In this document: piece by piece, positions 2,781-24,000 of the stretch
Layout of the letters: each line of letters opens with the position of its first letter
How positions within the stretch are numbered: position 1 is the stretch's first letter
Assembly: GCA_963676945.1 (NCBI GenBank)
Contig: OY781471.1
Span: forward strand, 2,214,482-2,238,481
Length of the DNA: 24,000 nt
From: Tissierellales bacterium
GTDB taxonomy: Bacteria; Bacillota; Clostridia; Tissierellales; GPF-1
Reading direction: 5' to 3'
Notes under the pieces: model-generated
The model's input: only the letters and a program-made list of their open reading frames with translations
What the model was told of the DNA's origin: nothing
The model's database searches: none
Translations under genes and position numbers: made by a program

Positions 2781-3026
2781 GTGAAAGATTATTTGCAAGA
2801 GCATTATGACCATGTATTTCAAAAAACCTATGAGAGCTTAATGGTTGACCGGGAGTCAAATCCTAAATTTACCATAGAAGATTTGGAACGATTGTTGGAG
2901 AGCTTGTATATCCGCATGGGGGATGACATCGGCGGACGCGGCGAGATTATGGACGCGTCGATCGATGCGGAAATCGCGGCCGTGCAGGTTGTGTTGCATG
3001 ACTGGAAGGAAGAACTGAAAAAATAG
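2781..3026 (+). CDS. small acidic hypothetical protein (81 aa)
   Basis: GTG start preceded by AAGGAG at 7 nt. It ends 11 nt before the MATE start codon, so the two are probably co-transcribed. I do not recognise the family. Confidence 0.55.
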   Translation: MKDYLQEHYDHVFQKTYESLMVDRESNPKFTIEDLERLLESLYIRMGDDIGGRGEIMDASIDAEIAAVQVVLHDWKEELKK

Positions 3027-4393: not shown

Positions 4394-4434
4394 AGAAAGA
4401 AGGATTTCCAAACGGAAATCCTTCTTTCTTTTAT
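4394..4434. terminator. strong hairpin terminator between convergent MATE and MotB-like genes
   Basis: Perfect 16 bp stem AGAAAGAAGGATTTCC / GGAAATCCTTCTTTCT with loop AAAC, followed by TTTTA on the + strand. The U-run is weaker for the - strand. Confidence 0.8.
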
Positions 4435-4446
4435 GATTCTTTTATT

Positions 4447-5397
4447 TTACGAATCGCTGTTCTCTTCTGACGACGAAGCGATTCCAAGGAAATCGTCCGT
4501 CCCGTTCAAGTAGTCGTTGATCAATTTTTGCAGGTTCGGATCTTTCAAGCCGATGGCAATCTCGATCCGACGGTTCTTCGCCCAGGCGTCTTCTGTCATG
4601 CCAGGATCGATCGGTCGGTATTCGGAGTAGCCGGCTGCTGAAATGTACTCGCCGTACTTGCTTTCCAAACTTGGATTTACGGAAGCCATATAATCGGTTA
4701 CAGCCGCAGCGCGGTCGGTAGACAACTCCCGGTTCGGTTCCATGTTTGGCCGTTTGTCCGTATGGCCCTGAATTTCGATGACATCGATATATTGGCGGGT
4801 ATACTCATCGTCCAGGATGTTTTCGAAAGCATCTGCCAATTTACCAAGCAAAGCCTGGCCTTCCGGTGTAATCACGGTGGAGCTTGGTGCAAACAGGACA
4901 CTGCTGTTTAGGATGATATTGCCGTTTTCCCCAATGGTGACAACCGACTCGCCGTTTGCGTTGAATCCGCCCAGCTCGTCCTCAATGGACTGCTTGACGG
5001 CTTCCAGCACTTCAAAACGAAGGGCTGCCAATTGATCCAGCTTGGTTCTGAGTTCAGCCAGTTCCCGATTGGAGTTGGCGATAATCTTTTGCTGTTCGGA
5101 CATTTGAATCAAAGACAGTTGCAGGATTCTTTGTCCTTCGTCGATTTCGGCGTTCAGTTCGTCCAGTTGGTCTTCCAGGATCATCAATTCCTTTTTGGTT
5201 TCCTGAATGTCTGCATTGGCAAGCCGCAATTCTTCTTCTTTTGTTTTTAGGTTGGTGCCGGTAATAATGTTTTGTACATAAGACAAAAGCATCAGGAAGA
5301 ACAGGATCAGGGCGATCGTCGAGATCATATCCGTAAAGGATGGCCAGAAATTCTGTTCTTGTTCCTCGGCCTTAAAGTTTCTGCGTCGCATTTTCAT
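4447..5397 (-). CDS. MotB/OmpA-family protein: N-terminal TM with channel Asp, long coiled coil, C-terminal OmpA-like peptidoglycan-binding domain
   Basis: NFWPSFTDMISTIALILFFLMLL resembles the MotB/ExbD-type TM with a conserved Asp (D23). Residues ~49-141 are heptad-rich (EEELRLANADIQETKKELMILEDQLDELNAEIDE..). The C-terminus carries GHTD..NRELSTDRAAAV..NRRIEI OmpA-like motifs. AAGGAG lies 9 nt upstream, directly after the stop of the preceding gene. Confidence 0.85.
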   Translation of the reverse strand: MKMRRRNFKAEEQEQNFWPSFTDMISTIALILFFLMLLSYVQNIITGTNLKTKEEELRLANADIQETKKELMILEDQLDELNAEIDEGQRILQLSLIQMSEQQKIIANSNRELAELRTKLDQLAALRFEVLEAVKQSIEDELGGFNANGESVVTIGENGNIILNSSVLFAPSSTVITPEGQALLGKLADAFENILDDEYTRQYIDVIEIQGHTDKRPNMEPNRELSTDRAAAVTDYMASVNPSLESKYGEYISAAGYSEYRPIDPGMTEDAWAKNRRIEIAIGLKDPNLQKLINDYLNGTDDFLGIASSSEENSDS

Positions 5398-5410
5398 CGA
5401 TGATCACTCC

Positions 5411-6364
5411 TTACGCACTATGGACGTTCTTGGTTGAATCCTTCATCGCATCTGTGAAATCCGACAAGCTGACGTTCATTCGTTCAATATTGGTTTTCAA
5501 GTGATGGTTGAATTCCGTCAAATCCCGGGTATTGTCCGAGAATGTTTCCAAGGATGCGGCGAACATGGAGATGGCCTGCATCAATGCCTTGGAAGAGGTT
5601 TGAAGCTCGGTTGTTGTTTTGGTCAATTGGATGGTCGAGTCTTGGGCCAGATGAATCAAATCGTTGGACATCTGATCGCCGTAGCGGTCGAATACCTGTT
5701 GAACGGCTTCTGCCAGCATTTGATACTCTTCCTGCATGCGGGTGGAGTAGTCTTTGGCAACAACGTTGTCCAGGTAGGACTCAATCTCAACCAGCAAGGT
5801 TTCCCGCACGGTGCCGATATTGGCAAATGTGGACAAAAGGGTCAGGATAATGGCGCCGGAGATACCGAACAATGAGGTTACGAAGGCAACACTCATGCCC
5901 TGTACCGAGTCAATCAGACCGGTAACCACGCCTTCCACGCTGGTGAATTCAACACCACCGCCGTTGCTTAAGAGATTAACCAGCTCGCTGATGGAAAGGG
6001 TCAATCCATAGAAGGTTCCCAAAAGGCCCAAGATAATCATGATCGAGTTGGCTTGTTTTACAAAGCGTTCTCCCAAAGCCAAAGTGTTGTGCTCGTTGTT
6101 GAAGTGTTTTTCAATAATCGCCTGAGTGTTGACGTCGGGACCATTGGACTCTGCCGCTTTACGATAGTCGTCGGTGATTTTTGTCAGGACAATTTCCGAG
6201 AAGTTCGGATTTTTTAATTTATGATTCCTGTGGAAGTCCCGGCTGATTTTTGCGTATCGGCTCCGCACGGTCGCGGTGGCAATAAATGCCAATAGAAATA
6301 CAACGGCGATTAGTGTTATAATCGTTATGGCTAAAGGGTTCAATTGTTGAATTAAGTCAAACAT
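5411..6364 (-). CDS. MotA/TolQ/ExbB-family proton-channel protein with a ~130 aa C-terminal helical tail
   Basis: Three predicted TMs (~11-31, ~105-127, ~156-179). ILGLLGTFYGL and GMSVAFVTSLFGISGAIIL match the two conserved MotA/TolQ/ExbB helices. Residues 185-317 are polar and helical. AGGAGG RBS. Confidence 0.8.
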   Translation of the reverse strand: MFDLIQQLNPLAITIITLIAVVFLLAFIATATVRSRYAKISRDFHRNHKLKNPNFSEIVLTKITDDYRKAAESNGPDVNTQAIIEKHFNNEHNTLALGERFVKQANSIMIILGLLGTFYGLTLSISELVNLLSNGGGVEFTSVEGVVTGLIDSVQGMSVAFVTSLFGISGAIILTLLSTFANIGTVRETLLVEIESYLDNVVAKDYSTRMQEEYQMLAEAVQQVFDRYGDQMSNDLIHLAQDSTIQLTKTTTELQTSSKALMQAISMFAASLETFSDNTRDLTEFNHHLKTNIERMNVSLSDFTDAMKDSTKNVHSA

Positions 6365-6410
6365 CTTTTTCCTCCTTGTGATGACTCCTGTGTCAGTAAA
6401 TTCTATCTAC

Positions 6411-6440
6411 ATAATACGGGGAGTTGGAAAGGGGTGTCAA
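6411..6440 (-). promoter_or_regulatory. sigma-A promoter of the MotA-like/MotB-like operon
   Basis: On the minus strand: TTGACA (6440-6435), an 18 nt spacer, then TATTAT (6416-6411). The -10 lies about 47 nt upstream of the ATG at 6364. Confidence 0.6.
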
Positions 6441-6558
6441 ATAATGTTTAAAACCCCTCTAATGCCGATGAATACTGGATTGTAACGTGGTCGTAAGGGG
6501 ATATACATAAAAAAGTTACAATTCGGACAAAGATATGCCATAAAAAACGGAGGATTTC

Positions 6559-7794
6559 ATGGGAAAGTTTACAGGATATTTAATTGTTTCTGATCTGGAC
6601 GGGACCTTGCTGAATGATGAGCACAAGGTCAGCGAGAAAAATGCGGAGGCAATTCGCTATTTCATTCAAAACGGAGGCCGGTTTACTGTCGCTACCGGAC
6701 GCATTCGGGAAGAGGTCATTCCTTTTTTGGATGAGTTGATTATGAATGTACCGGCGATTGTTTCCAACGGAGGCATGATCTATGATTTCAATTCGGATTT
6801 TATGATTATGGAACGGTTTCTGCCGCATCATATCGAGTGGTTTACCGAAAAGGTTATGGAGAAGTTCCCGGAACTGGGCGTGATGGTGGTCGCCAAGGGC
6901 GAGGTTGTCATGATTCGGGAGAACGAGATTTTCTTGGCGGATCCGGACTTGTACCGCACCTTTACCCTGCCGAGAAAACAATTGTCGGAATTGGGCGAGT
7001 CCTGGGGAAAAGTGCTTTTCTCTTTAAAGGAAGAAAAAGTGCCGGAACTGGAAGCCTATCTGCGGTCCCAGACAAGCGATGTTGAAGTTGTCCAGTCCTA
7101 TCAGACAACGCTGGAACTGCTTCCCAAAGGTGTGTCAAAGGGTGAGGCGCTGGAATTTATTATCCGCGGCTTGCGGGCCAATCGGGACAAGGTCTTTGTG
7201 CTGGGCGACAATATGAACGACTATGCCATGCTGGAAACTGTGCCTAATGGATGGTGTGTGGAGAATGCCAATCCGCGTCTCAAGGAGATTGCATCCCGCG
7301 TCATGCCGCCGCATACGGAATCGGCCGTTGCCGCTATGATCGAAGAGGTGGAGCGGATCGTGGACAGACAGCTAGAGGCGGATCAGGAGCTGGCGACTGC
7401 TTATTTGAAGGAAAATGACTGTACCTTGGCATTTGTAAAAAACGGCCAGGTGATTTACGAAAGTCATAAAAAGGGCATTCGCCCCATGTTTGAAGCGCTG
7501 CATGCGGACGTGGATTTGAAAGGGGCGGTTTTGGCGGATCGCGTGATCGGAAGAGCGGCGGCCATGCTGGCCTTGTCGGCGGGAGTTCGGTCGATTTACA
7601 CCTTCCTGGTCAGCGAATCGGCATTGGCGGTTTGTCGGGAGAAAGGATTCGAAAAAATCGCGTATGAAAAGATTTCCCCCTATGTGATGAACCGGACGCA
7701 GGATGATCTTTGCCCCATTGAGAAATTGTCTCAGGGAACGGATGATCCGGTGGAGTTGATGGACCGCATTGAGGAGTTTCTAAAGGGCCTGTAG
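6559..7794 (+). CDS. fusion protein: Cof-type HAD-IIB phosphatase (aa 1-~266) plus DUF1893/TM1506-like domain (aa ~277-411)
   Basis: HAD motifs are SDLDGTLL (I), VATGR (II), K..G (III) and GDNMND (IV), with a Cof-like cap. The C-terminal CTLAFVKNGQVIYESHKKGIRP..LKGAVLADRVIGRAAAMLALSAGV..PYVMNRTQDDLCPIEKL resembles the TM1506 family from memory. RBS is ACGGAGG. Confidence 0.8.
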   Translation: MGKFTGYLIVSDLDGTLLNDEHKVSEKNAEAIRYFIQNGGRFTVATGRIREEVIPFLDELIMNVPAIVSNGGMIYDFNSDFMIMERFLPHHIEWFTEKVMEKFPELGVMVVAKGEVVMIRENEIFLADPDLYRTFTLPRKQLSELGESWGKVLFSLKEEKVPELEAYLRSQTSDVEVVQSYQTTLELLPKGVSKGEALEFIIRGLRANRDKVFVLGDNMNDYAMLETVPNGWCVENANPRLKEIASRVMPPHTESAVAAMIEEVERIVDRQLEADQELATAYLKENDCTLAFVKNGQVIYESHKKGIRPMFEALHADVDLKGAVLADRVIGRAAAMLALSAGVRSIYTFLVSESALAVCREKGFEKIAYEKISPYVMNRTQDDLCPIEKLSQGTDDPVELMDRIEEFLKGL

Positions 7795-7807: not shown

Positions 7808-7884
7808 GATTGACGAAAACCCCATGCCGTGGTACGCTGAAAGTACGAATAATGAACGTGTGTTTACGATTGGGGTTGGACAAA

Positions 7885-8994
7885 ATGAGGAGACGAGAGA
7901 TAAGTAAATGGGTGCCGATAATCCTGTTGCTGGCTGTGGCCACAATGGGTTTGGCCGGCTGCCAGCCGGAACCGCTGGAAGAGGCCATACCGGTCAGCGT
8001 ACGCATTGTGCGCGCGGAGACCAGTCTTTTGGAGCGCACCTATCGCTATATGGGCACCATTGATACGGAAAGCATGATTAAACGAAGTTTTCCCGCCAGC
8101 GGCCGGATTGATTCCATAGCTGTTTCGGAAGGAGATCAGGTAGAAGCGGGCCAGGTGCTGGCAACGCTGGATCCCGAGACGGTTCAATTGCAGGTGGATG
8201 CCAGCAGAGCGCAATGGGAAGCGGCGCGCGCCCAGTATGAAAAGGCGCAGGCGGGCGTGGCGTTTGCCCGCGACACCTATGAAAAGATGCAGACCCTGTA
8301 TGAGTCGGGGGCGGTATCCAGCTTTGAGAGGGATCAGGCCAAGCTGCAATGGGAAACCCTGATTCAAGACCGGGATGCGGCCTACAAGGTCTGGCAGCAG
8401 GCGCAAGCCGCATACGAGGGGGCCGACAAGGTGGCGGAAGAGAGCGTGATTCGGGCGGATGGGACCAGCCATGTCTTGTCGATTCTGAATGAACCGGGCG
8501 AGTTTGTGGCCGCGGGATACCCTGTGATCATTCTGCGGGATCCGGAGAGCCGGGTCCGGCTTTTTGTCACCCAGGAAGAAATCGTGGATGTCCAGGTCGG
8601 CCAGAATGTGCGCTGCCGGTTCGGCGATGAAAGCTACGCGGGAACAGTAGACTGGATTGCAGAGGTGCCCGATGCGGCAACCCTCACCTATGAGGTGCAG
8701 GTGCGTCTGGAGGGGGCCGACCTGCGGCTGGGAACCATTGTGGACGTGGAGATTATCCTGAAACGGGTGACCGCGATTCAAATTCCCATCCAAAGCATTA
8801 TGAACGATGAAAACGGGGACTATGTCTATGTCGTGAAAGATGGTATAGTCGGCAAGAAAATGATCGAACGGAAGACCATTGACGACACCTTTGTGGAAGT
8901 CGAGGGGCTTTCCGCCGGCGACCAAGTGGTTGTAAGGGGCATGGCCTATGTGGAAGAAGGCCAATCCGTGTCCGCAAGGGAGATGGAAGAATGA
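7885..8994 (+). CDS. efflux RND transporter periplasmic adaptor (membrane fusion protein), lipoprotein
   Basis: I place the start at ATG 7885: MRRREISKWVPIILLLAVATMGLAGC is a signal peptide with an LAGC lipobox. It has a coiled-coil hairpin (AQWEAARAQYEKAQA..) and beta-barrel regions typical of the HlyD/AcrA family. Its stop overlaps the next start as ATGA. Confidence 0.88.
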   Translation: MRRREISKWVPIILLLAVATMGLAGCQPEPLEEAIPVSVRIVRAETSLLERTYRYMGTIDTESMIKRSFPASGRIDSIAVSEGDQVEAGQVLATLDPETVQLQVDASRAQWEAARAQYEKAQAGVAFARDTYEKMQTLYESGAVSSFERDQAKLQWETLIQDRDAAYKVWQQAQAAYEGADKVAEESVIRADGTSHVLSILNEPGEFVAAGYPVIILRDPESRVRLFVTQEEIVDVQVGQNVRCRFGDESYAGTVDWIAEVPDAATLTYEVQVRLEGADLRLGTIVDVEIILKRVTAIQIPIQSIMNDENGDYVYVVKDGIVGKKMIERKTIDDTFVEVEGLSAGDQVVVRGMAYVEEGQSVSAREMEE

Positions 8995-11900
8995 AAAACG
9001 GATTGATCGGTGCAGCCATAGAACGGAAACGGGTTACCATCACCCTGGTCATCTTTCTGTTGATCTTTGGATTTGTGCGTTATGCCGAATTGCCCAAGCA
9101 GGAGTCGCCGGAAATCAGCGCGCCCTATGCCATGGTCTACTGCGTGTATCCCGGGGCGAGTCCGGAAGATATTGAAAAGATGGTGACCAAACGGATTGAA
9201 GATGAATTGAATGCCTTGGAGGGAATTGAAAAAGTGACCTCCCAATCCAAAAATTCGGTCTCCGTTGTCATCATTAAATTGAAGGAAAGTGTTTCCGACC
9301 AGGGAATTGATGAAACCTGGGCGGAACTCCGGTGGCGGATGTCGGACTTGCAGGCAGACCTGCCCGAGTTTGCCTTGCCAGTCGAGGTCAATACGGATTT
9401 GATCTCGACGGCGGGCATGTTGATCTCCATATCCAGTCCCCATTACACCTATGAGGAAATGGAAGGCTATGCCGAGACGGTCAAGGACGCGCTGACGGCC
9501 CTCGACGGGGTCAGCCGTTTTGAGATCACCGGCAAGCAGGAGCAGGAGCTGCAGATTCTGGTTGATTTCAAGAAACTGAATCGTTATGACCTGTCCTATG
9601 ACCAGTTGTCCAAGCTGATTGTGGCTTCCAACCTGGCGATCCCTTCCGGTGTCATTGAGAATGAGTATGGAAAAATTAATGTCAGTGCGACTGGCATGTA
9701 TTCGGAACTAGATGAAATCGCCAATACCATCGTGTATGGATCTCCCGAGAGCGGGGCGGTGGTGCGGCTGAAGGATATTGCCCAGGTGCAGTTTGTGCCG
9801 GCAGCTTCCAATTACAAGGTCAAGGATGATGGGCTTCCCAGTCTGCTCTTGACGGGATACTTCGAATCTGGGAAAAATGTGATTGCCGTGGGCGAGGCGG
9901 TCGATGAGACCATCGAAGCCTTGCAAGCGGACTTGCCGGAGGATTTGCGGTTTGAATCCATCGTCTATCAGCCGGATGATGTGAAGACGGCGGTGGATGA
10001 ATTTACGATGAATCTGCTGCAAGGGATCCTGCTGGTGATTTTGGTGGTACTGATTGGCATGGGACCCAGAAATGCGGTGATTGTTTCGCTTGCGATCCCT
10101 TTGTCTATTGCCATCACTTTTTTGGGCATGAGCGGACTGGACCTGAAAATTCATGAGATATCCATCGCTTCCTTGATCATTGCCTTGGGCATGCTGGTGG
10201 ACAACGCCATCGTTGTCAGCGATGCCATTCAATTGCGGATTGATGTCGGCGGCGACAGAATGGCCGCCTGCGTGGATGGCGTGAAGGAAGTCGCCATTCC
10301 GATTTTGACCTCAACCATGACGACCATTGCCGCCTATGCGCCGTTTTTGCTCTTGAACAATACGGCGGGGAAATACATGCACGCCCTGCCCTTGGTGGTG
10401 ATGATGGCTTTGCTGGCTTCCTACGCGATTGCTCTTCTGGTGACGCCGACTTTCGCCTATCTGTTTTTCAAACCCAGCCATGCCCGTTTTAAGACGAGTC
10501 GAATCCGCGATTTTTACGGCCGGATGTTGGATCGGGCCATGGAACATCGAGGGAGAACCCTGGTGTCGGTAGCGGCCGTGACGGTTGCCGTCGGGAGCCT
10601 GGTTTTGCTCTTGACCATGAGTGTATTTCCCTTTAAAGACACCGATTTGCTCTATGTGGATGTCTATTCGGAAGTGGATGGGGACCTGGTCCGTACGGAA
10701 GCAGTGTCGGATCAAACGGTATCCATTCTGAAAGAATTTTCGGAAGTTGGGAAAGTCAGCCAGGTTATTGGCGATGGATTTCCGAAATTCACTTCGACGC
10801 TGAGTCCGCCAATCCGGTCGTCGGACTATTCGCAGATTGTGCTGCGTTATAGCCTGGCGGATTCGCCTGGTTATGAAACCCAGCAAGATTTGGTCAACGC
10901 CATGCAGCGGGAGCTGGATCGAAAATTGGTCGGCGGCCAGGCTTTCGTCCGCCAGCTGCAACTGGCGGAACCACGAGTCTATACGGTGATGGTGAAATTG
11001 GCCGGAGACGACCTTGCCTATTTGACCCGTTCCGCTTCGGAGGTCCAGGAGATTTTGGCACAGATTCCCGGGGCGGTGGAAACGGGAAACAATGCGGCAA
11101 GCCGGATTTACGAGTATTACCTGGAGGTTGACACGGACAAGGCTGCCGCTTTGGGCATTACCAAGTACGATATACAGAATGAAATGAATCTGGCCCTTCG
11201 GGGGCGGGATGTGTCGGTATTCCGGGAAGAGGGGCGCGAAACGAAGATTCGTTTGGTCAGCACCATGGAAAGCTTGTACGATCTTGAAAATTTGGCCATT
11301 GCATCGCAAATAACCGGCAGCAAGGTACTCTTAAAGCAGATCGCCCATGTGGAGCTGAGAAGTGAATTGCCGGTGATCCGCCATGAGGACGGAAAGCGGA
11401 CGGTATCGGTCTATGCCAATGCGGCGAAAGGATACGATCCCATTTCCATTGAGAACCAGTTGGAGGAGGCCCTGGGCGAGCGTCAGTGGAAGGGCATCAG
11501 CTTTTCCTATGACGGGGAGCGGGAATCGGTAAGCCGGTATTTCGGCGATTTGATTCCATTGGGTTTTTTGTCTTTGGCGCTTGTGTTTCTGATTTTATTG
11601 GTTCAGTTTAACTCCTTTGTACAGCCGGCCATCATTATGGCAACGGTGCCCCTGTCCCTGATCGGGTCCGTTATGGGCTTGCTGCTGTTCCGCCAGCCCC
11701 TGTCTTTTACCGCCCTCTTGGGCATGGTCTCCTTGATGGGAATTGTGGTCAACAATGCCATTGTATTGATTGACTTTATCAATGCGGAGCGTGGGATGGG
11801 ACACGATGTGCAAACGGCCTGCCGGGAAGCGGTAGCCAAGCGGATCCGTCCGATTCTCCTGTCCACGACTACGACGGTGATCGGTTTGATTCCCCTGGCT

Positions 11901-12059
11901 TTGGGCGGGAGCAGTTTGTTTAAACCCATGAGCATCGCTCTGATCTTTGGGCTTATGGTTTCAACGGTTCTGACACTGATCGTCATTCCCGTCGTATACA
12001 GTTTGACGGAGGAAAGAAAACAAGGGCGAAAGCTGTTCGGGAAATCAGAAAATTTGTAG
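8991..12059 (+). CDS. efflux RND transporter permease (AcrB/AcrD/AcrF family)
   Basis: 1022 aa with two repeats, each a large extracytoplasmic loop plus TM bundles. Contains ALGMLVDNAIVV and LMGIVVNNAIVLID, the conserved TM4/TM10-type motifs. Confidence 0.93.
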   Translation: MKNGLIGAAIERKRVTITLVIFLLIFGFVRYAELPKQESPEISAPYAMVYCVYPGASPEDIEKMVTKRIEDELNALEGIEKVTSQSKNSVSVVIIKLKESVSDQGIDETWAELRWRMSDLQADLPEFALPVEVNTDLISTAGMLISISSPHYTYEEMEGYAETVKDALTALDGVSRFEITGKQEQELQILVDFKKLNRYDLSYDQLSKLIVASNLAIPSGVIENEYGKINVSATGMYSELDEIANTIVYGSPESGAVVRLKDIAQVQFVPAASNYKVKDDGLPSLLLTGYFESGKNVIAVGEAVDETIEALQADLPEDLRFESIVYQPDDVKTAVDEFTMNLLQGILLVILVVLIGMGPRNAVIVSLAIPLSIAITFLGMSGLDLKIHEISIASLIIALGMLVDNAIVVSDAIQLRIDVGGDRMAACVDGVKEVAIPILTSTMTTIAAYAPFLLLNNTAGKYMHALPLVVMMALLASYAIALLVTPTFAYLFFKPSHARFKTSRIRDFYGRMLDRAMEHRGRTLVSVAAVTVAVGSLVLLLTMSVFPFKDTDLLYVDVYSEVDGDLVRTEAVSDQTVSILKEFSEVGKVSQVIGDGFPKFTSTLSPPIRSSDYSQIVLRYSLADSPGYETQQDLVNAMQRELDRKLVGGQAFVRQLQLAEPRVYTVMVKLAGDDLAYLTRSASEVQEILAQIPGAVETGNNAASRIYEYYLEVDTDKAAALGITKYDIQNEMNLALRGRDVSVFREEGRETKIRLVSTMESLYDLENLAIASQITGSKVLLKQIAHVELRSELPVIRHEDGKRTVSVYANAAKGYDPISIENQLEEALGERQWKGISFSYDGERESVSRYFGDLIPLGFLSLALVFLILLVQFNSFVQPAIIMATVPLSLIGSVMGLLLFRQPLSFTALLGMVSLMGIVVNNAIVLIDFINAERGMGHDVQTACREAVAKRIRPILLSTTTTVIGLIPLALGGSSLFKPMSIALIFGLMVSTVLTLIVIPVVYSLTEERKQGRKLFGKSENL

Positions 12060-22281: not shown

Positions 22282-24000
22282 ATGATTCGAAACGAAGCGA
22301 TTGATCAGGCGATGCGTGTGAAACTCGAGGACGTATTTGAGGTCTTGCCCGAAGCGCCCATTTTTGACGATTCCAAGCGACGTGCACCCAAAAGGGCATT
22401 TACACTGACCGAGGACGAAACGGTATTGGCCCTGCAAAATGCCCTTCGGTATCTGCCGGAAAAATGGCACAAAGAAATGGCACCGGAGTTTTTAGAGGAG
22501 TTGCGTACCCATGGACGGATTTATGGGTACCGATTCCGTCCCCAAGGCGCCATCAAGGGAAGAGCCATTTCCGCCTACAAGGGAAAGACCCAGGCGGGCA
22601 AGGCTGTTCAGGTGATGATTGACAATAACCTGGACTTTGACATTGCCCTTTATCCCTATGAATTGGTCACCTACGGGGAAACCGGCCAAGTCTGCCAGAA
22701 CTGGATGCAGTACCAGATTATCAAGCGATATCTGGAAGAGATGAAAGAAGACCAGACCTTGGTTGTTGCCTCCGGTCATCCGGTGGGCCTCTTCCATTCC
22801 GACGCCCATGCGCCACGGGTGATTCTGACCAACGCCTTGATGATCGGCATGTATGATGATCAGGAAAACTGGAATCGGGCCATGCAGCTTGGGGTTGCCA
22901 ACTATGGACAGATGACGGCAGGCGGATGGATGTATATCGGTCCGCAGGGCATCGTTCACGGGACCTATTCCACGCTTCTCAATGCCGCACGCCAGCGAGA
23001 CGACCGATCGGCAGACGCGGATTGCAGGGGATTGCTCTTTGTTTCCAGCGGTTTGGGCGGGATGTCCGGCGCGCAGGCGAAATCGGTCGAGATTGCCAAT
23101 GGAGTCGGCATTGTCGCTGAAGTGGATGAATCGCGGATTGTCACCCGCCATGAACAAGGCTGGGTTTCCGAAGTAGCCGAGACGCCGGAAGAGGCTTTTG
23201 CAAAAGCGGAAGTGGCCAAGCGGAACGAAGAAGCCTTGTCCATTGCCTACCATGGAAATATTGTGGATCTTTTGGAACATGCCGTGGAAAACGATATCAC
23301 CATTGACCTTTTGTCCGATCAGACCAGCTGCCATGCAGTCTATGACGGCGGATACTGCCCGGCAGGCGTTAGCTTTGAGGAGCGAACACGGCTGCTGGCG
23401 GAAGAGAAGGACCGGTTTGTAGGCCTGGTTGACGAAACCCTGCAGCGCCATTACCGAGCCATCAAGGCATTGTGCGACAAGGGAACCTACTTTTTCGACT
23501 ACGGAAACAGCTTCCTGAAAGCGGTCTTTGATGCCGGGGTTCCGGAAGTCTGCAAAAACGGGATCGACCCGATTGACGGTTTTGTTTATCCTTCCTATGT
23601 GGAAGACCTGATGGGACCCTTGTTCTTCGATTATGGCTATGGTCCCTTCCGCTGGGTATGCCTGTCCGGCGATTCAGAAGACCTGGACAAGACAGACCAG
23701 GCAGCCATGGACTGCATTGATCCGGAGCGCAGGTTCCAAGATCGGGACAATTACAATTGGATTCGGGATGCCAAGAAGAATGCCTTGGTTGTGGGCACGC
23801 AGGCGCGTATTCTCTACCAAGACGCCTTGGGCCGCATGAAAATCGCCTTGAAATTCAATGAGATGGTGCGACAGGGAACCATCGGTCCGGTGATGCTGGG
23901 CCGCGACCATCACGATACCGGCGGAACAGATTCGCCTTTCCGTGAGACCTCCAATATCAAGGACGGCAGCAACATCATGGCTGAGATGGCGACCCATTGC
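22282..24000 (+). CDS. hutU: urocanate hydratase (long form), 5' partial; runs off the window end
   Basis: This ORF is not in the supplied track. ATG at 22282 follows AAAGGGGGA by 4 nt, and the frame stays open for 573 codons to position 24000. Motifs: YGETGQV.QNW, ASGHPVGLF, MTAGGWMYIGPQGIVHGT, SGLGGMSGAQ, RDHHDTGGTDSPFRETSNI. Confidence 0.93.
   Translation, partial: MIRNEAIDQAMRVKLEDVFEVLPEAPIFDDSKRRAPKRAFTLTEDETVLALQNALRYLPEKWHKEMAPEFLEELRTHGRIYGYRFRPQGAIKGRAISAYKGKTQAGKAVQVMIDNNLDFDIALYPYELVTYGETGQVCQNWMQYQIIKRYLEEMKEDQTLVVASGHPVGLFHSDAHAPRVILTNALMIGMYDDQENWNRAMQLGVANYGQMTAGGWMYIGPQGIVHGTYSTLLNAARQRDDRSADADCRGLLFVSSGLGGMSGAQAKSVEIANGVGIVAEVDESRIVTRHEQGWVSEVAETPEEAFAKAEVAKRNEEALSIAYHGNIVDLLEHAVENDITIDLLSDQTSCHAVYDGGYCPAGVSFEERTRLLAEEKDRFVGLVDETLQRHYRAIKALCDKGTYFFDYGNSFLKAVFDAGVPEVCKNGIDPIDGFVYPSYVEDLMGPLFFDYGYGPFRWVCLSGDSEDLDKTDQAAMDCIDPERRFQDRDNYNWIRDAKKNALVVGTQARILYQDALGRMKIALKFNEMVRQGTIGPVMLGRDHHDTGGTDSPFRETSNIKDGSNIMAEMATHC

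What the first reader, a model, noticed from the sequence alone, without database searches (positions are those of the whole stretch)
4447..6364. Orphan two-gene stator-like ion motor (MotA/ExbB-like plus MotB/OmpA-like) with no known partner genes
The sequence shows a translationally coupled two-gene operon with its own strong promoter (6411-6440) and a 16 bp hairpin terminator (4394-4434). Gene 1 has the three-TM TolQ/ExbB topology and both conserved channel helices (ILGLLGTFYGL; GMSVAFVTSLFGISGAIIL). Gene 2 has the single TM with the invariant proton-carrying Asp (SFTDMIS) and a C-terminal OmpA-like peptidoglycan-binding domain (GHTD, NRELSTDRAAAV, NRRIEI). From established knowledge, such pairs form 5:2 rotary ion-driven motors: MotAB for flagella, ExbBD and TolQR for the outer membrane, and ZorAB for Zorya phage defence. 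Every characterised example works with partner proteins encoded or acting nearby (flagellar rotor, TonB/TolA, ZorC/D/E). No such partner is present here. The flanking genes are a convergent MATE exporter and a divergent HAD fusion gene, and the host appears to be a Bacillota member, where no Ton/Tol target exists. I infer a minimal motor whose output is carried by the extensions of its own two subunits. It could be a reduced Zorya-like defence or envelope-sensing module, or an undescribed wall-associated machine.
Basis: partly seen in the sequence, partly recalled or inferred. Interest (0 to 1): 0.8.

Follow-up and report, generated by a model that had tools for sequence, protein, structure and literature searches.

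The report
Effector-less ZorAB-like ion motor, Clostridia
Two adjacent genes encode a wall-anchored, ion-driven membrane motor most like the sensor half of the Zorya phage-defence system, but it belongs to a large, strongly conserved chromosomal family of Gram-positive anaerobes that lacks Zorya's nuclease partners, so what it drives is unknown.

Summary
Genes A (5411-6364, minus strand, 317 aa) and B (4447-5397, minus strand, 316 aa) form an operon with a conserved sigma-A-type promoter and a 16-bp hairpin downstream.

A is a three-TM ExbB/TolQ/ZorA-class subunit. Its only solved sequence relatives are ZorA chains. It ends in one 134-residue heptad-periodic helix. B has an invariant TM Asp, a roughly 100-residue coiled-coil stalk and an intact OmpA-like wall-binding domain. 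Its best full-length structural match is ZorB.

The pair is not a one-off. Each protein has over 1,000 homologues, found in 113 species genomes, almost all Clostridia/Tissierellia. A is always followed by B. dN/dS is 0.03-0.08. Flanks are housekeeping genes that differ between lineages. No copies were found on plasmids or phages, and no sigma-D signal was found.

No Zorya effector, flagellar gene or TonB/TolA gene accompanies it. A sister subfamily has a tail about 165 residues longer and always (26 of 26 loci) carries a third gene, a TPR protein. This shows that tails of this family recruit soluble partners.

Verdict: an uncharacterised, effector-less ZorAB-type 5:2 motor. It is a new variant of a known kind, and its biological role is unresolved.

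The parts
6411..6440 (-). Sigma-A-type promoter of the operon (TTGACA, 18 nt, TATTAT)
   Evidence: 11 of 12 consensus match. The block is identical in L005 and L006 and has one spacer change in SANA, despite dS>1.4.
6371..6377 (-). Ribosome-binding site AAGGAGG, 6 nt before the ATG of gene A
   Evidence: Read from the sequence; invariant in the 4-genome alignment.
5411..6364 (-). Gene A: 317-aa ZorA-like pentamer (wheel) subunit with three TM helices
   Evidence: ORF. PADLOC ZorA1 2e-9. The PDB profile search hits only ZorA chains. Foldseek matches ExbB, TolQ and ZorA. AF2 mean pLDDT 81.8.
5825..6064 (-). Channel core of A (residues about 101-180): TM2 SIMIILGLLGTFYGLTLSI and TM3 GMSVAFVTSLFGISGAIIL, with conserved Thr117 and Thr163
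   Evidence: Invariant or near-invariant columns in alignment A1. This is the region that aligns to ZorA.
5414..5818 (-). Cytoplasmic tail of A (residues 183-317): one continuous helix of about 20 nm with heptad periodicity
   Evidence: AF2 helix 183-316. Period 3.55, with 0 of 500 shuffles reaching the observed power.
5465..5563 (-). Conserved tail-tip motif (residues 268-300; window FSDNTRDLTEFNHHLKTNIERMNV, family consensus FxENTRDFSEFNHHLRTNIxRMNV), a candidate docking site
   Evidence: Invariant columns F268, F275, N278, D281, F285, N286, L289, N292, R295 and M296. The motif is retained in the Myxococcota homologue.
5407..5412 (-). Ribosome-binding site AAGGAG of gene B, overlapping the stop codon of A
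   Evidence: Read from the sequence.
4447..5397 (-). Gene B: 316-aa ZorB/MotB-like dimer (axle) subunit
   Evidence: ORF. PADLOC ZorB1 1.5e-32. PDB profile best match is 8vvn_B, a type I ZorB, at 3.3e-15. Foldseek best matches are 8vvn_A and 8vvn_B.
5266..5349 (-). TM helix of B (residues 17-44, FWPSFTDMISTIALILFFLMLL) with the ion-carrying Asp23 (codon 5329-5331)
   Evidence: Asp is invariant in A2 and in all 76 intact B proteins from the loci. This segment aligns to the ZorB TM motif.
4972..5265 (-). Extracytoplasmic coiled-coil stalk of B (residues 45-142, about 15 nm)
   Evidence: AF2 gives one helix from residue 18 to 142. Period 3.50, with 4 of 500 shuffles reaching it. The stalk is absent from the 229-234-aa B subunits of distant relatives.
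4546..4941 (-). OmpA-like peptidoglycan-binding domain of B (residues 153-284), with the GHTD...NRxLSxxRA...NRRIEI motifs intact
   Evidence: Pfam OmpA 7e-13. G211, D214, N222, L225, S226, R229 and N275-I280 are invariant. Foldseek matches the MotS, MotB and ZorB wall-binding domains.
4394..4429 (.). 16-bp hairpin between the convergent operon and the MATE gene
   Evidence: z=-7.6. The T-tract lies on the + strand only.

Best explanation
The two genes encode the A (wheel, presumed pentamer) and B (axle, presumed dimer) subunits of an ion-driven 5:2 membrane motor of the ZorAB branch. It belongs to a chromosomal, vertically conserved family of Clostridia/Tissierellia.

Proposed mechanism. Shown: the domain anatomy and its conservation. 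Inferred by homology: the stoichiometry and rotation.

Two B chains insert their TM helices into a ring of five A chains. The invariant Asp23 carboxylates face the conserved Thr117/Thr163 ring of A. B is fixed to the thick Gram-positive wall by its OmpA-like domains, which sit on a coiled-coil stalk of about 15 nm. Ion flow through the A/B interface turns the A ring around the anchored B dimer. The five C-terminal helices of A bundle into a cytoplasmic tail of about 20 nm. The tail's near-invariant tip motif transmits this motion, or a conformational change, to a soluble partner that is not encoded in the locus.

It is not a flagellar stator, not a Ton/Tol motor and not a canonical Zorya system. 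Its genomic behaviour fits a housekeeping role better than a mobile phage-defence role. The most likely such role is sensing or transducing the state of the cell wall.
For: Motor identity:
- PADLOC's best hits are ZorA and ZorB.
- The A profile hits only ZorA among all PDB sequences (6e-8). No MotA, PomA, ExbB or TolQ hit appears even at E<=10.
- The A model superposes on ExbB, TolQ and ZorA. Identity to ZorA is 17-21%, against 10-15% to ExbB/TolQ. PomA appears only at rank 50.
- B's best matches are ZorB, by profile and by fold.
- Asp23 is invariant in 76 of 76 intact B proteins.
- The wall-binding motif residues are invariant.
- The A tail and B stalk are long helices with significant heptad periodicity.

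Genomic behaviour:
- A has more than 1,000 homologues and B more than 1,900. The family is in 113 species genomes.
- A is followed by B in 79 of 81 loci.
- dN/dS is 0.03-0.08.
- The window has the same flanks as Gottschalkiaceae SANA and two MAGs. Other lineages have unrelated housekeeping flanks.
- GC content is normal.
- No copy was found on 72,556 plasmids or 50,697 phages.

Partner logic:
- A long tail (277-303 residues after EEYLDN) co-occurs with a third TPR gene, c2, in 26 of 26 complete loci.
- Short-tail loci never have c2.
- The tail tip is near-invariant.
Against: Nothing here shows 5:2 stoichiometry, ion flow, rotation or wall binding directly. A falls just below the Pfam MotA_ExbB gathering score (22.4 against 22.9 bits). 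It is far below NCBI's curated ZorA_2 cutoff (39.7 against 100 bits). No partner for the short-tail form was identified. c2 has no detectable relative outside its own clade. The housekeeping reading rests only on genomic behaviour; no phenotype exists for any family member. I could not scan whole genomes, so prevalence within Clostridia and co-occurrence with flagella are unmeasured.
Confidence: 0.6

Rival explanations
1. It is a reduced Zorya-type anti-phage system. The ZorAB-like complex senses phage-induced wall or membrane damage. It then either kills or arrests the cell by uncontrolled ion influx (depolarisation), or activates a nuclease encoded elsewhere in the genome.
For: The closest recognisable relatives of both proteins are Zorya components. 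The size and layout resemble the short type II ZorA (378 aa in PDB 8VVI; PMC11890865). Distant long-tailed relatives also occur as A+B with a variable third gene, which echoes Zorya's modularity.
Against: No ZorC, ZorD, ZorE, ZorF or ZorG gene is present, and the only recurrent neighbour (c2) has no nuclease or PADLOC match. In published systems ZorAB alone gives no protection (PMC11946911, PMC11890865). The pair sits at a fixed site among housekeeping genes and is under strong purifying selection, with 50-55% identity across orders. It is absent from plasmids and phages. Scores are far below the curated ZorA cutoff. Zorya is reported to be under-represented in monoderms.
Confidence: 0.2
2. 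It is a Ton/Tol-like or SiiAB-like energiser. The motor does mechanical work on a wall-associated or surface structure, such as an S-layer or SLH protein, an efflux or secretion apparatus, or wall remodelling. Force would be delivered through the long B stalk rather than through the cytoplasmic tail.
For: By fold, A is closest to ExbB and TolQ. B carries an unusual stalk of about 15 nm that recalls the GldM shaft. In Tissierellales-type loci an SLH-domain protein gene (c32, six loci) and/or an RND pump (c6 in 11 loci, usually with c20/c21), the window included, lie close to the pair.
Against: B ends in a peptidoglycan-anchoring OmpA-like domain with intact binding residues. This makes B the fixed part, not a moving shaft. 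There is no TonB/TolA-like or ExbD/TolR-type protein. The SLH and RND neighbours are lineage-specific synteny, absent from most loci. The best-conserved non-channel element is the cytoplasmic tail tip.
Confidence: 0.12
3. It is an alternative flagellar stator, an extra MotAB/MotPS-like unit.
For: Some sources annotate B as 'chemotaxis protein MotB'. B's wall-binding domain resembles MotS and MotB. One distant relative lies 1.8 kb from a che gene cluster.
Against: A has three TM helices, not four, and lacks the MotA cytoplasmic rotor-interface domain. No MotA or PomA sequence match appears even at E<=10, and PomA is only rank 50 by fold. No flagellar gene recurs next to the pair in 81 loci. None appears in the nine loci with Pfam-annotated neighbours. 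There is no sigma-D promoter enrichment.
Confidence: 0.03

Closest known systems
Zorya ZorAB (type I: E. coli 8QYD, Shewanella 8VVN; type II: Sulfuricurvum kujiense 8VVI)
   Same: A three-TM A subunit with a conserved TM2/TM3 channel core and a C-terminal helical tail. A B subunit with a TM Asp and an OmpA-like wall-binding domain. Gene order A then B. These are the only solved sequence relatives of A and the best full-length structural match of B.
   Different: No effector genes. The tail is only about 134 residues, against about 270 (type II) or about 500 (type I). B has an extra coiled-coil stalk of about 100 residues. Scores are far below the curated ZorA cutoff. The genes are chromosomal, syntenic and strongly conserved in monoderm Clostridia, rather than patchy, island-borne and mostly in diderms.
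ExbB-ExbD / TolQ-TolR
   Same: The fold of the A subunit (three TM helices; top Foldseek hits 6YE4, 9KPZ, 5SV0) and the Asp-in-TM logic of B.
   Different: B has an OmpA-like domain instead of the ExbD/TolR periplasmic fold. There is no TonB/TolA partner. The host has no outer membrane. There are no sequence-level hits.
Flagellar MotAB / MotPS / PomAB
   Same: B-subunit architecture (Asp plus an OmpA-like domain; C. sporogenes MotB 7e-15; B. subtilis MotS by fold).
   Different: A is not a four-TM MotA. There is no rotor-interface domain, no flagellar context and no sigma-D signal.
NCBIfam PRK09039 'peptidoglycan-binding protein' (NF006543 and relatives)
   Same: The best NCBIfam hit of B (106.6 bits). 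The match covers both the coiled-coil region and the OmpA-like domain.
   Different: The score is far below the model cutoff of 305 bits. The family's function is uncharacterised to my knowledge. The relationship of their partners to A was not tested.
Long-tail sister subfamily A-B-c2 (Thermoclostridium, Acetivibrio, Herbivorax, Ruminiclostridium)
   Same: Same A core, same tail-tip motif position, same stalked B (37-42% identity to the window's A).
   Different: The A tail is about 165 residues longer (median 283 against 130.5 residues after EEYLDN). A third gene, c2, follows B closely (gap of -25 to +28 nt in most loci, up to 217). It encodes a soluble protein of about 320 aa with an N-terminal TPR domain.

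Membership tests
5:2 ion-driven motor superfamily (MotA/ExbB/TolQ/ZorA + MotB/ExbD/TolR/ZorB) | The A subunit has the conserved TM helix pair lining the channel, with polar Thr residues | tested here: met
   Pfam MotA_ExbB E=1e-4 (22.4 bits, GA 22.9), and many homologues carry PF01618. T117 and T163 are invariant. Foldseek probability is 1.00 to ExbB, TolQ and ZorA.
5:2 ion-driven motor superfamily | The B subunit has a single TM helix with an invariant Asp near its cytoplasmic end | tested here: met
   D23 is invariant in A2 and in 76 of 76 intact locus proteins.
5:2 ion-driven motor superfamily | A5B2 stoichiometry and ion-driven rotation | not testable with these tools
   Only single-chain prediction was available; this needs a multimer prediction or cryo-EM.
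Zorya (types I-III) | A ZorA-type A subunit by sequence | tested here: inconclusive
   The best PADLOC hits are ZorA models (2e-9), and the only PDB sequence relatives are ZorA. However, NCBIfam antiphage_ZorA_2 gives 39.7 bits against a cutoff of 100.
Zorya (types I-III) | A long C-terminal ZorA tail | tested here: inconclusive
   A single 134-residue heptad helix is present. It is much shorter than the tails described for all Zorya types (PMC11946911).
Zorya (types I-III) | ZorB with a TM Asp and a peptidoglycan-binding domain | tested here: met
   PADLOC ZorB1 1.5e-32, covering model positions 5-227 of 232. 8vvn_B aligns over both the TM segment and the OmpA domain.
Zorya (types I-III) | Cognate soluble effector genes in the operon (zorCD, zorE or zorFG) | tested here: not met
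   The window flanks are a MATE gene and an HAD-DUF1893 gene. The only recurrent neighbour in 81 loci is c2, a TPR protein with no PADLOC match.
Zorya (types I-III) | Anti-phage activity | not testable with these tools
   Needs phage challenge experiments.
Flagellar stator MotAB/PomAB/MotPS | A four-TM MotA with a cytoplasmic rotor (FliG) interface between TM2 and TM3 | tested here: not met
   The AF2 model has three TM helices. No MotA or PomA sequence hit at E<=10. PomA is rank 50 by fold.
Flagellar stator MotAB/PomAB/MotPS | Flagellar or chemotaxis gene context, or a sigma-D promoter | tested here: not met
   No recurrent flagellar neighbour. None in the annotated loci except one distant relative near a che cluster. 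Sigma-D pattern in 3 of 73 loci, against 3.0 expected.
ExbBD / TolQR | A three-TM ExbB/TolQ-fold A subunit | tested here: met
   Top Foldseek hits are 6ye4, 9kpz, 9ddo and 5sv0.
ExbBD / TolQR | A B subunit with an ExbD/TolR periplasmic domain, plus a TonB/TolA transducer | tested here: not met
   B carries an OmpA-like domain. No TonB/TolA-like gene is in the window.
NCBIfam PRK09039 peptidoglycan-binding protein | Score above the curated model cutoff | tested here: not met
   106.6 bits against a cutoff of 305.

The most novel reading that the evidence does not exclude
ZorAB-type motors are not primarily defence devices. This family would be a housekeeping, wall-anchored rotary transducer of Gram-positive anaerobes. 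It would report or act on the mechanical or chemical state of the thick cell wall through a short rotating cytoplasmic tail. Zorya would then be a derived use of the same sensor, made by lengthening the tail and adding nucleases. The A-B-TPR sister subfamily would be an intermediate showing how tail extension and partner capture go together.
Probability: 0.3. Interest if true: 0.8.

Novelty: new variant of a known kind. Interest (0 to 1): 0.55.

Why it matters
All characterised 5:2 motors are understood through what they drive: the flagellar rotor, TonB/TolA, GldM tracks or the Zorya nucleases. Here a ZorAB-type motor is a stable core gene pair in many Gram-positive anaerobes with nothing obvious to drive. 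This is a phylum group where Zorya itself is reported to be rare.

If it is a housekeeping wall-state transducer, it would give the ancestral context of the Zorya sensor. It would also be a minimal two-protein system for studying how wall perturbation gates such motors.

The perfect link between tail length and presence of a third gene gives a concrete, testable rule for how these tails acquire partners. The conserved tail tip gives a defined bait for finding the missing partner.

Tried and rejected
1. c2 in the window's clade. An HMM built from 26 c2 sequences found no c2 relative among the called ORFs (at least 80 aa, non-overlapping set) of the window or of any short-tail locus. The 319-aa no-Pfam ORF at 22492-23451 was also absent from the hits; its translation looks low-complexity, and whether it is a real gene was not tested. 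A database-wide profile search found c2 only in a Thermoclostridium-type clade.
2. Alternative sigma promoters (sigma D, E, F/G, K, H) upstream of A in 73 loci. None was enriched over shuffles.
3. Mobile-element origin. No tblastn match on plasmids or phages, and GC content is normal.
4. Are the long-tailed distant relatives true Zorya? They score only 45-72 bits against ZorA models. Their contexts lack effectors, except that one has an unrelated third gene.
5. Literature. Six full-text searches or paper readings found no description of this family.
6. A Foldseek search against afdb50 was not possible because the library was unavailable.
7. I could not test whether the host has a separate flagellar stator, because no whole-genome access was available.
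Full report
OBSERVATION

Gene A is at 5411-6364 (minus strand, 317 aa) and gene B at 4447-5397 (minus strand, 316 aa). All quoted motifs are present in the translations.

They are separated by 13 nt, with AAGGAG overlapping the stop codon of A. They are therefore closely linked but not overlapping.

The promoter-like site TTGACA-18-TATTAT at 6440-6411 matches 11 of 12 consensus positions. The whole block is identical in two related MAGs and has one spacer change in Gottschalkiaceae bacterium SANA. Synonymous sites between these genomes are saturated (dS 1.4-1.7), so this conservation argues that the promoter is functional.

The hairpin at 4394-4429 has a 16-bp stem (-27.1 kcal/mol, z=-7.6). 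Its T-tract is on the + strand, so canonically it is the terminator of the convergent MATE gene. It may serve the pair only as a bidirectional terminator.

WHAT THE PROTEINS ARE

Protein A:
- Pfam MotA_ExbB gives E=1e-4 (22.4 bits, just under the 22.9 gathering score).
- The best matches in PADLOC and NCBIfam are ZorA models. PADLOC ZorA1 gives 2e-9. NCBIfam antiphage_ZorA_2 gives 39.7 bits, far below its cutoff of 100.
- A profile of 20 diverse homologues, searched against all PDB sequences, finds only E. coli ZorA chains (6e-8 to 5e-6) plus coiled-coil noise. No MotA, PomA, ExbB or TolQ appears even at E<=10.
- The AlphaFold model (mean pLDDT 81.8) has three TM helices, a small helical cytoplasmic insert, and one continuous C-terminal helix covering residues 183-316.
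- By fold it matches ExbB, TolQ and ZorA with probability 1.00. Identity is 17-21% to ZorA and 10-15% to ExbB/TolQ. The four-TM PomA appears only at rank 50.
- The tail has heptad periodicity (period 3.55; 0 of 500 shuffles reach the observed power).

Protein B:
- Pfam OmpA gives 7e-13 and PADLOC ZorB1 gives 1.5e-32 over nearly the full model.
- The best solved relative by profile is the type I ZorB of Shewanella (8vvn_B, 3.3e-15). It aligns over both the TM/Asp motif and the OmpA domain. It is narrowly ahead of C. sporogenes MotB (7e-15).
- By fold the top two hits are again ZorB chains.
- The model shows a single helix from residue 18 to 142. This covers the TM segment plus about 100 extracytoplasmic residues, with period 3.50 (4 of 500 shuffles). 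The OmpA-like domain follows at residues 153-284.
- Asp23 is invariant in the 20-sequence alignment and in all 76 intact B proteins recovered from the loci.
- The canonical wall-binding residues of OmpA-like domains are also invariant (GHTD, NxxLSxxRA, NRRIEI).

THE FAMILY AND ITS GENOMIC BEHAVIOUR

Size and spread. A has more than 1,000 homologues and B more than 1,900 in the 5.8-billion-protein collection. The nearest named one is from Gottschalkiaceae bacterium SANA. Beyond that, identity is 40-55% across Alkaliphilus, Tindallia, Anoxynatronum, Geosporobacter, Natronincola, Thermohalobacter, Caldisalinibacter, Caminicella, Maledivibacter, Petroclostridium, Fusibacter, Oceanirhabdus and Clostridium tepidiprofundi.

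An exhaustive profile search finds 93 clusters (at 50% identity) with E<=1e-30 and 2,537 with E<=1e-3. A pattern scan of one genome per GTDB species returned 113 species. Eighty loci were fetched.

Gene order and neighbours. I called ORFs in all loci and clustered them by all-against-all BLAST. A is followed by B on the same strand in 79 of 81 loci; the exceptions are contig ends. Flanking genes differ completely between lineages and are housekeeping genes. They include succinyl-CoA ligase, cardiolipin synthase, NAD synthase, polyphosphate kinase, tRNA synthetases and Trk.

The window itself is fully syntenic with the SANA chromosome. The order is Opp, PlsC-like acyltransferase, AcrB, MFP, HAD-DUF1893, A, B, MATE, RNase HII, RecU. 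This places the host in Tissierellales.

Selection and mobility:
- dN/dS against the two closest relatives is 0.03-0.08 for both genes.
- GC content is unremarkable.
- tblastn of A finds nothing on 72,556 plasmids or 50,697 phages.
- No sigma-D or sporulation-sigma pattern is enriched upstream in 73 loci.

One Myxococcota MAG (L081) carries a genuine, GC-adapted copy of both genes. The family is therefore not strictly confined to monoderms.

A THIRD GENE IN A SISTER SUBFAMILY

The only neighbour that recurs is cluster c2. It lies directly downstream of B on the same strand in 26 loci of the Thermoclostridium, Acetivibrio, Herbivorax and Ruminiclostridium lineages. The gap from B is -25 to +28 nt in most of these loci and at most 217 nt.

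These are exactly the loci where A has a long tail:

| Subfamily | Residues after the EEYLDN motif | Length of A | c2 present |
|---|---|---|---|
| Long tail | 277-303 | about 490 aa | 26 of 26 complete loci |
| Short tail (includes the window) | 114-146 | about 310-340 aa | never |

Three further long-tail loci appear to lack c2, but each sits on a contig that ends within 1 kb after B.

c2 is a soluble protein of about 320 aa. It has two N-terminal TPR motifs followed by an uncharacterised helical domain. It has no nuclease domain and no PADLOC match. Its family is small and sharply bounded: 31 clusters, then a jump from E=1e-88 to generic TPR hits at 1e-8. It includes the cultured Thermoclostridium stercorarium.

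This covariation is the strongest indication here that tails of this family recruit soluble partners. That is the same logic as in Zorya.

More distant long-tailed relatives (A of 605 or 669 aa, with a stalk-less B of 229-234 aa) also occur. One is an isolated pair. Another is followed by an unrelated soluble 365-aa gene. Both lack Zorya effectors.

MECHANISM

By homology with solved ZorAB, MotAB and ExbBD complexes, the likely mechanism is an A5B2 complex. This rests on established knowledge: PMC11946911, PMC11890865, PMC9389320.

- The two Asp23 residues of B face the invariant Thr117/Thr163 ring of A.
- B is fixed to peptidoglycan through its OmpA-like domains, on a coiled-coil stalk of about 15 nm.
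- Ion flow turns the A ring.
- The five tail helices form a bundle of about 20 nm.
- The tail's near-invariant tip (consensus FxENTRDFSEFNHHLRTNIxRMNV; FSDNTRDLTEFNHHLKTNIERMNV in the window) is the probable output or docking surface.

Shown here: the domain anatomy, the conservation and the family affinities. Inferred: the stoichiometry, the rotation, the wall binding and the existence of an unlinked partner.

BIOLOGICAL ROLE

The role is unresolved.

A housekeeping role is favoured by several features. The pair has a fixed chromosomal position. It is under strong purifying selection. Its distribution is broad and lineage-congruent. It has no mobile copies and no effectors. The most likely such role is sensing or transducing wall state.

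A reduced defence system cannot be excluded. It could act by depolarisation or through an unlinked effector.

The flagellar-stator reading is essentially excluded by the three-TM A subunit and by the genomic context. A Ton/Tol-type role is excluded by the OmpA-type B subunit and the lack of a transducer.

COMPARISON WITH THE LITERATURE

I found no paper that describes this family.

- The Nature 2024 Zorya paper states that Zorya is under-represented in single-membrane bacteria and that long tails occur in all types.
- The 2022 review of 5:2 motors lists ExbB-family proteins in Gram-positives as an untested puzzle.
- A 2025 survey regards Ton systems seen in monoderm Clostridia as probably non-functional. 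That is a different family, with an ExbD-type B subunit.
- The mBio 2025 stator phylogeny excluded ZorAB from its trees.

VERDICT

Three refinements apply.

1. It lies on the ZorAB branch.
2. It is a large conserved family rather than an orphan.
3. The evidence points to an unlinked partner rather than none.

I rate it a new variant of a known kind, of moderate to good interest.

Noticed in passing
L045:12528-13502, L078:12402-13382, L085:10956-11912 and 23 other loci: A third gene, c2 (about 320 aa, N-terminal TPR, otherwise uncharacterised), always follows A-B in the subfamily whose A tail is about 165 residues longer (median 283 against 130.5 residues after EEYLDN). The link between tail length and gene presence is perfect, 26 of 26 loci.
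   Followed up: yes
L081:9533-11902: A high-GC Myxococcales MAG carries a real, composition-adapted A+B pair of this otherwise Clostridial family. This implies either an old horizontal transfer or a wider distribution that includes diderms.
   Followed up: partly
window 6499-6546: A 48-nt block next to the start of the divergent HAD-DUF1893 gene is invariant apart from one 2-nt difference in one of four genomes, despite saturated synonymous sites. It is probably that gene's promoter or a regulatory element.
   Followed up: no
window 6559-7794: A fusion of a Cof-type HAD phosphatase with a DUF1893/TM1506 domain (411 aa), conserved in Gottschalkiaceae SANA.
   Followed up: no
window 7810-12059; also L003, L021, L029, L042, L074: An RND-type efflux pair (HlyD-like adaptor plus an AcrB-family pump) in a monoderm Bacillota genome. 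It recurs within a few genes of the A-B pair in 11 loci, and an SLH-domain protein gene does so in 6. This is probably lineage synteny, but a functional link to the envelope was not excluded.
   Followed up: partly
window 2781-3026: An 81-aa ORF between the MATE and RNase HII genes has a same-sized gene with no Pfam hit at the corresponding position in SANA (L087:12404-12649). Sequence similarity between the two was not checked.
   Followed up: no
L089:3788-10280: A cyanobacterial 759-aa ZorA-like protein with no B subunit called next to it. It lies downstream of a 1,093-aa Tubulin_2 protein and beside a restriction-modification pair.
   Followed up: no
L092:4522-13805: A 427-aa A relative with a 78-residue N-terminal extension, together with its B subunit, lies 1.8 kb from a complete che cluster (CheY, CheA, CheW, MCP, CheR, CheD, CheB). 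An integrase-like gene lies in between.
   Followed up: no
L091:4909-6006: A long-tailed relative (A 669 aa, B 234 aa without a stalk) is followed by a soluble, Lys-rich 365-aa protein unrelated to c2. This hints that different third genes accompany different tails.
   Followed up: partly
window 22492-23451: A 319-aa minus-strand ORF with no Pfam hit and a low-complexity, Gly/His-rich translation. It may not be a real gene; what is encoded in this stretch was not determined.
   Followed up: no
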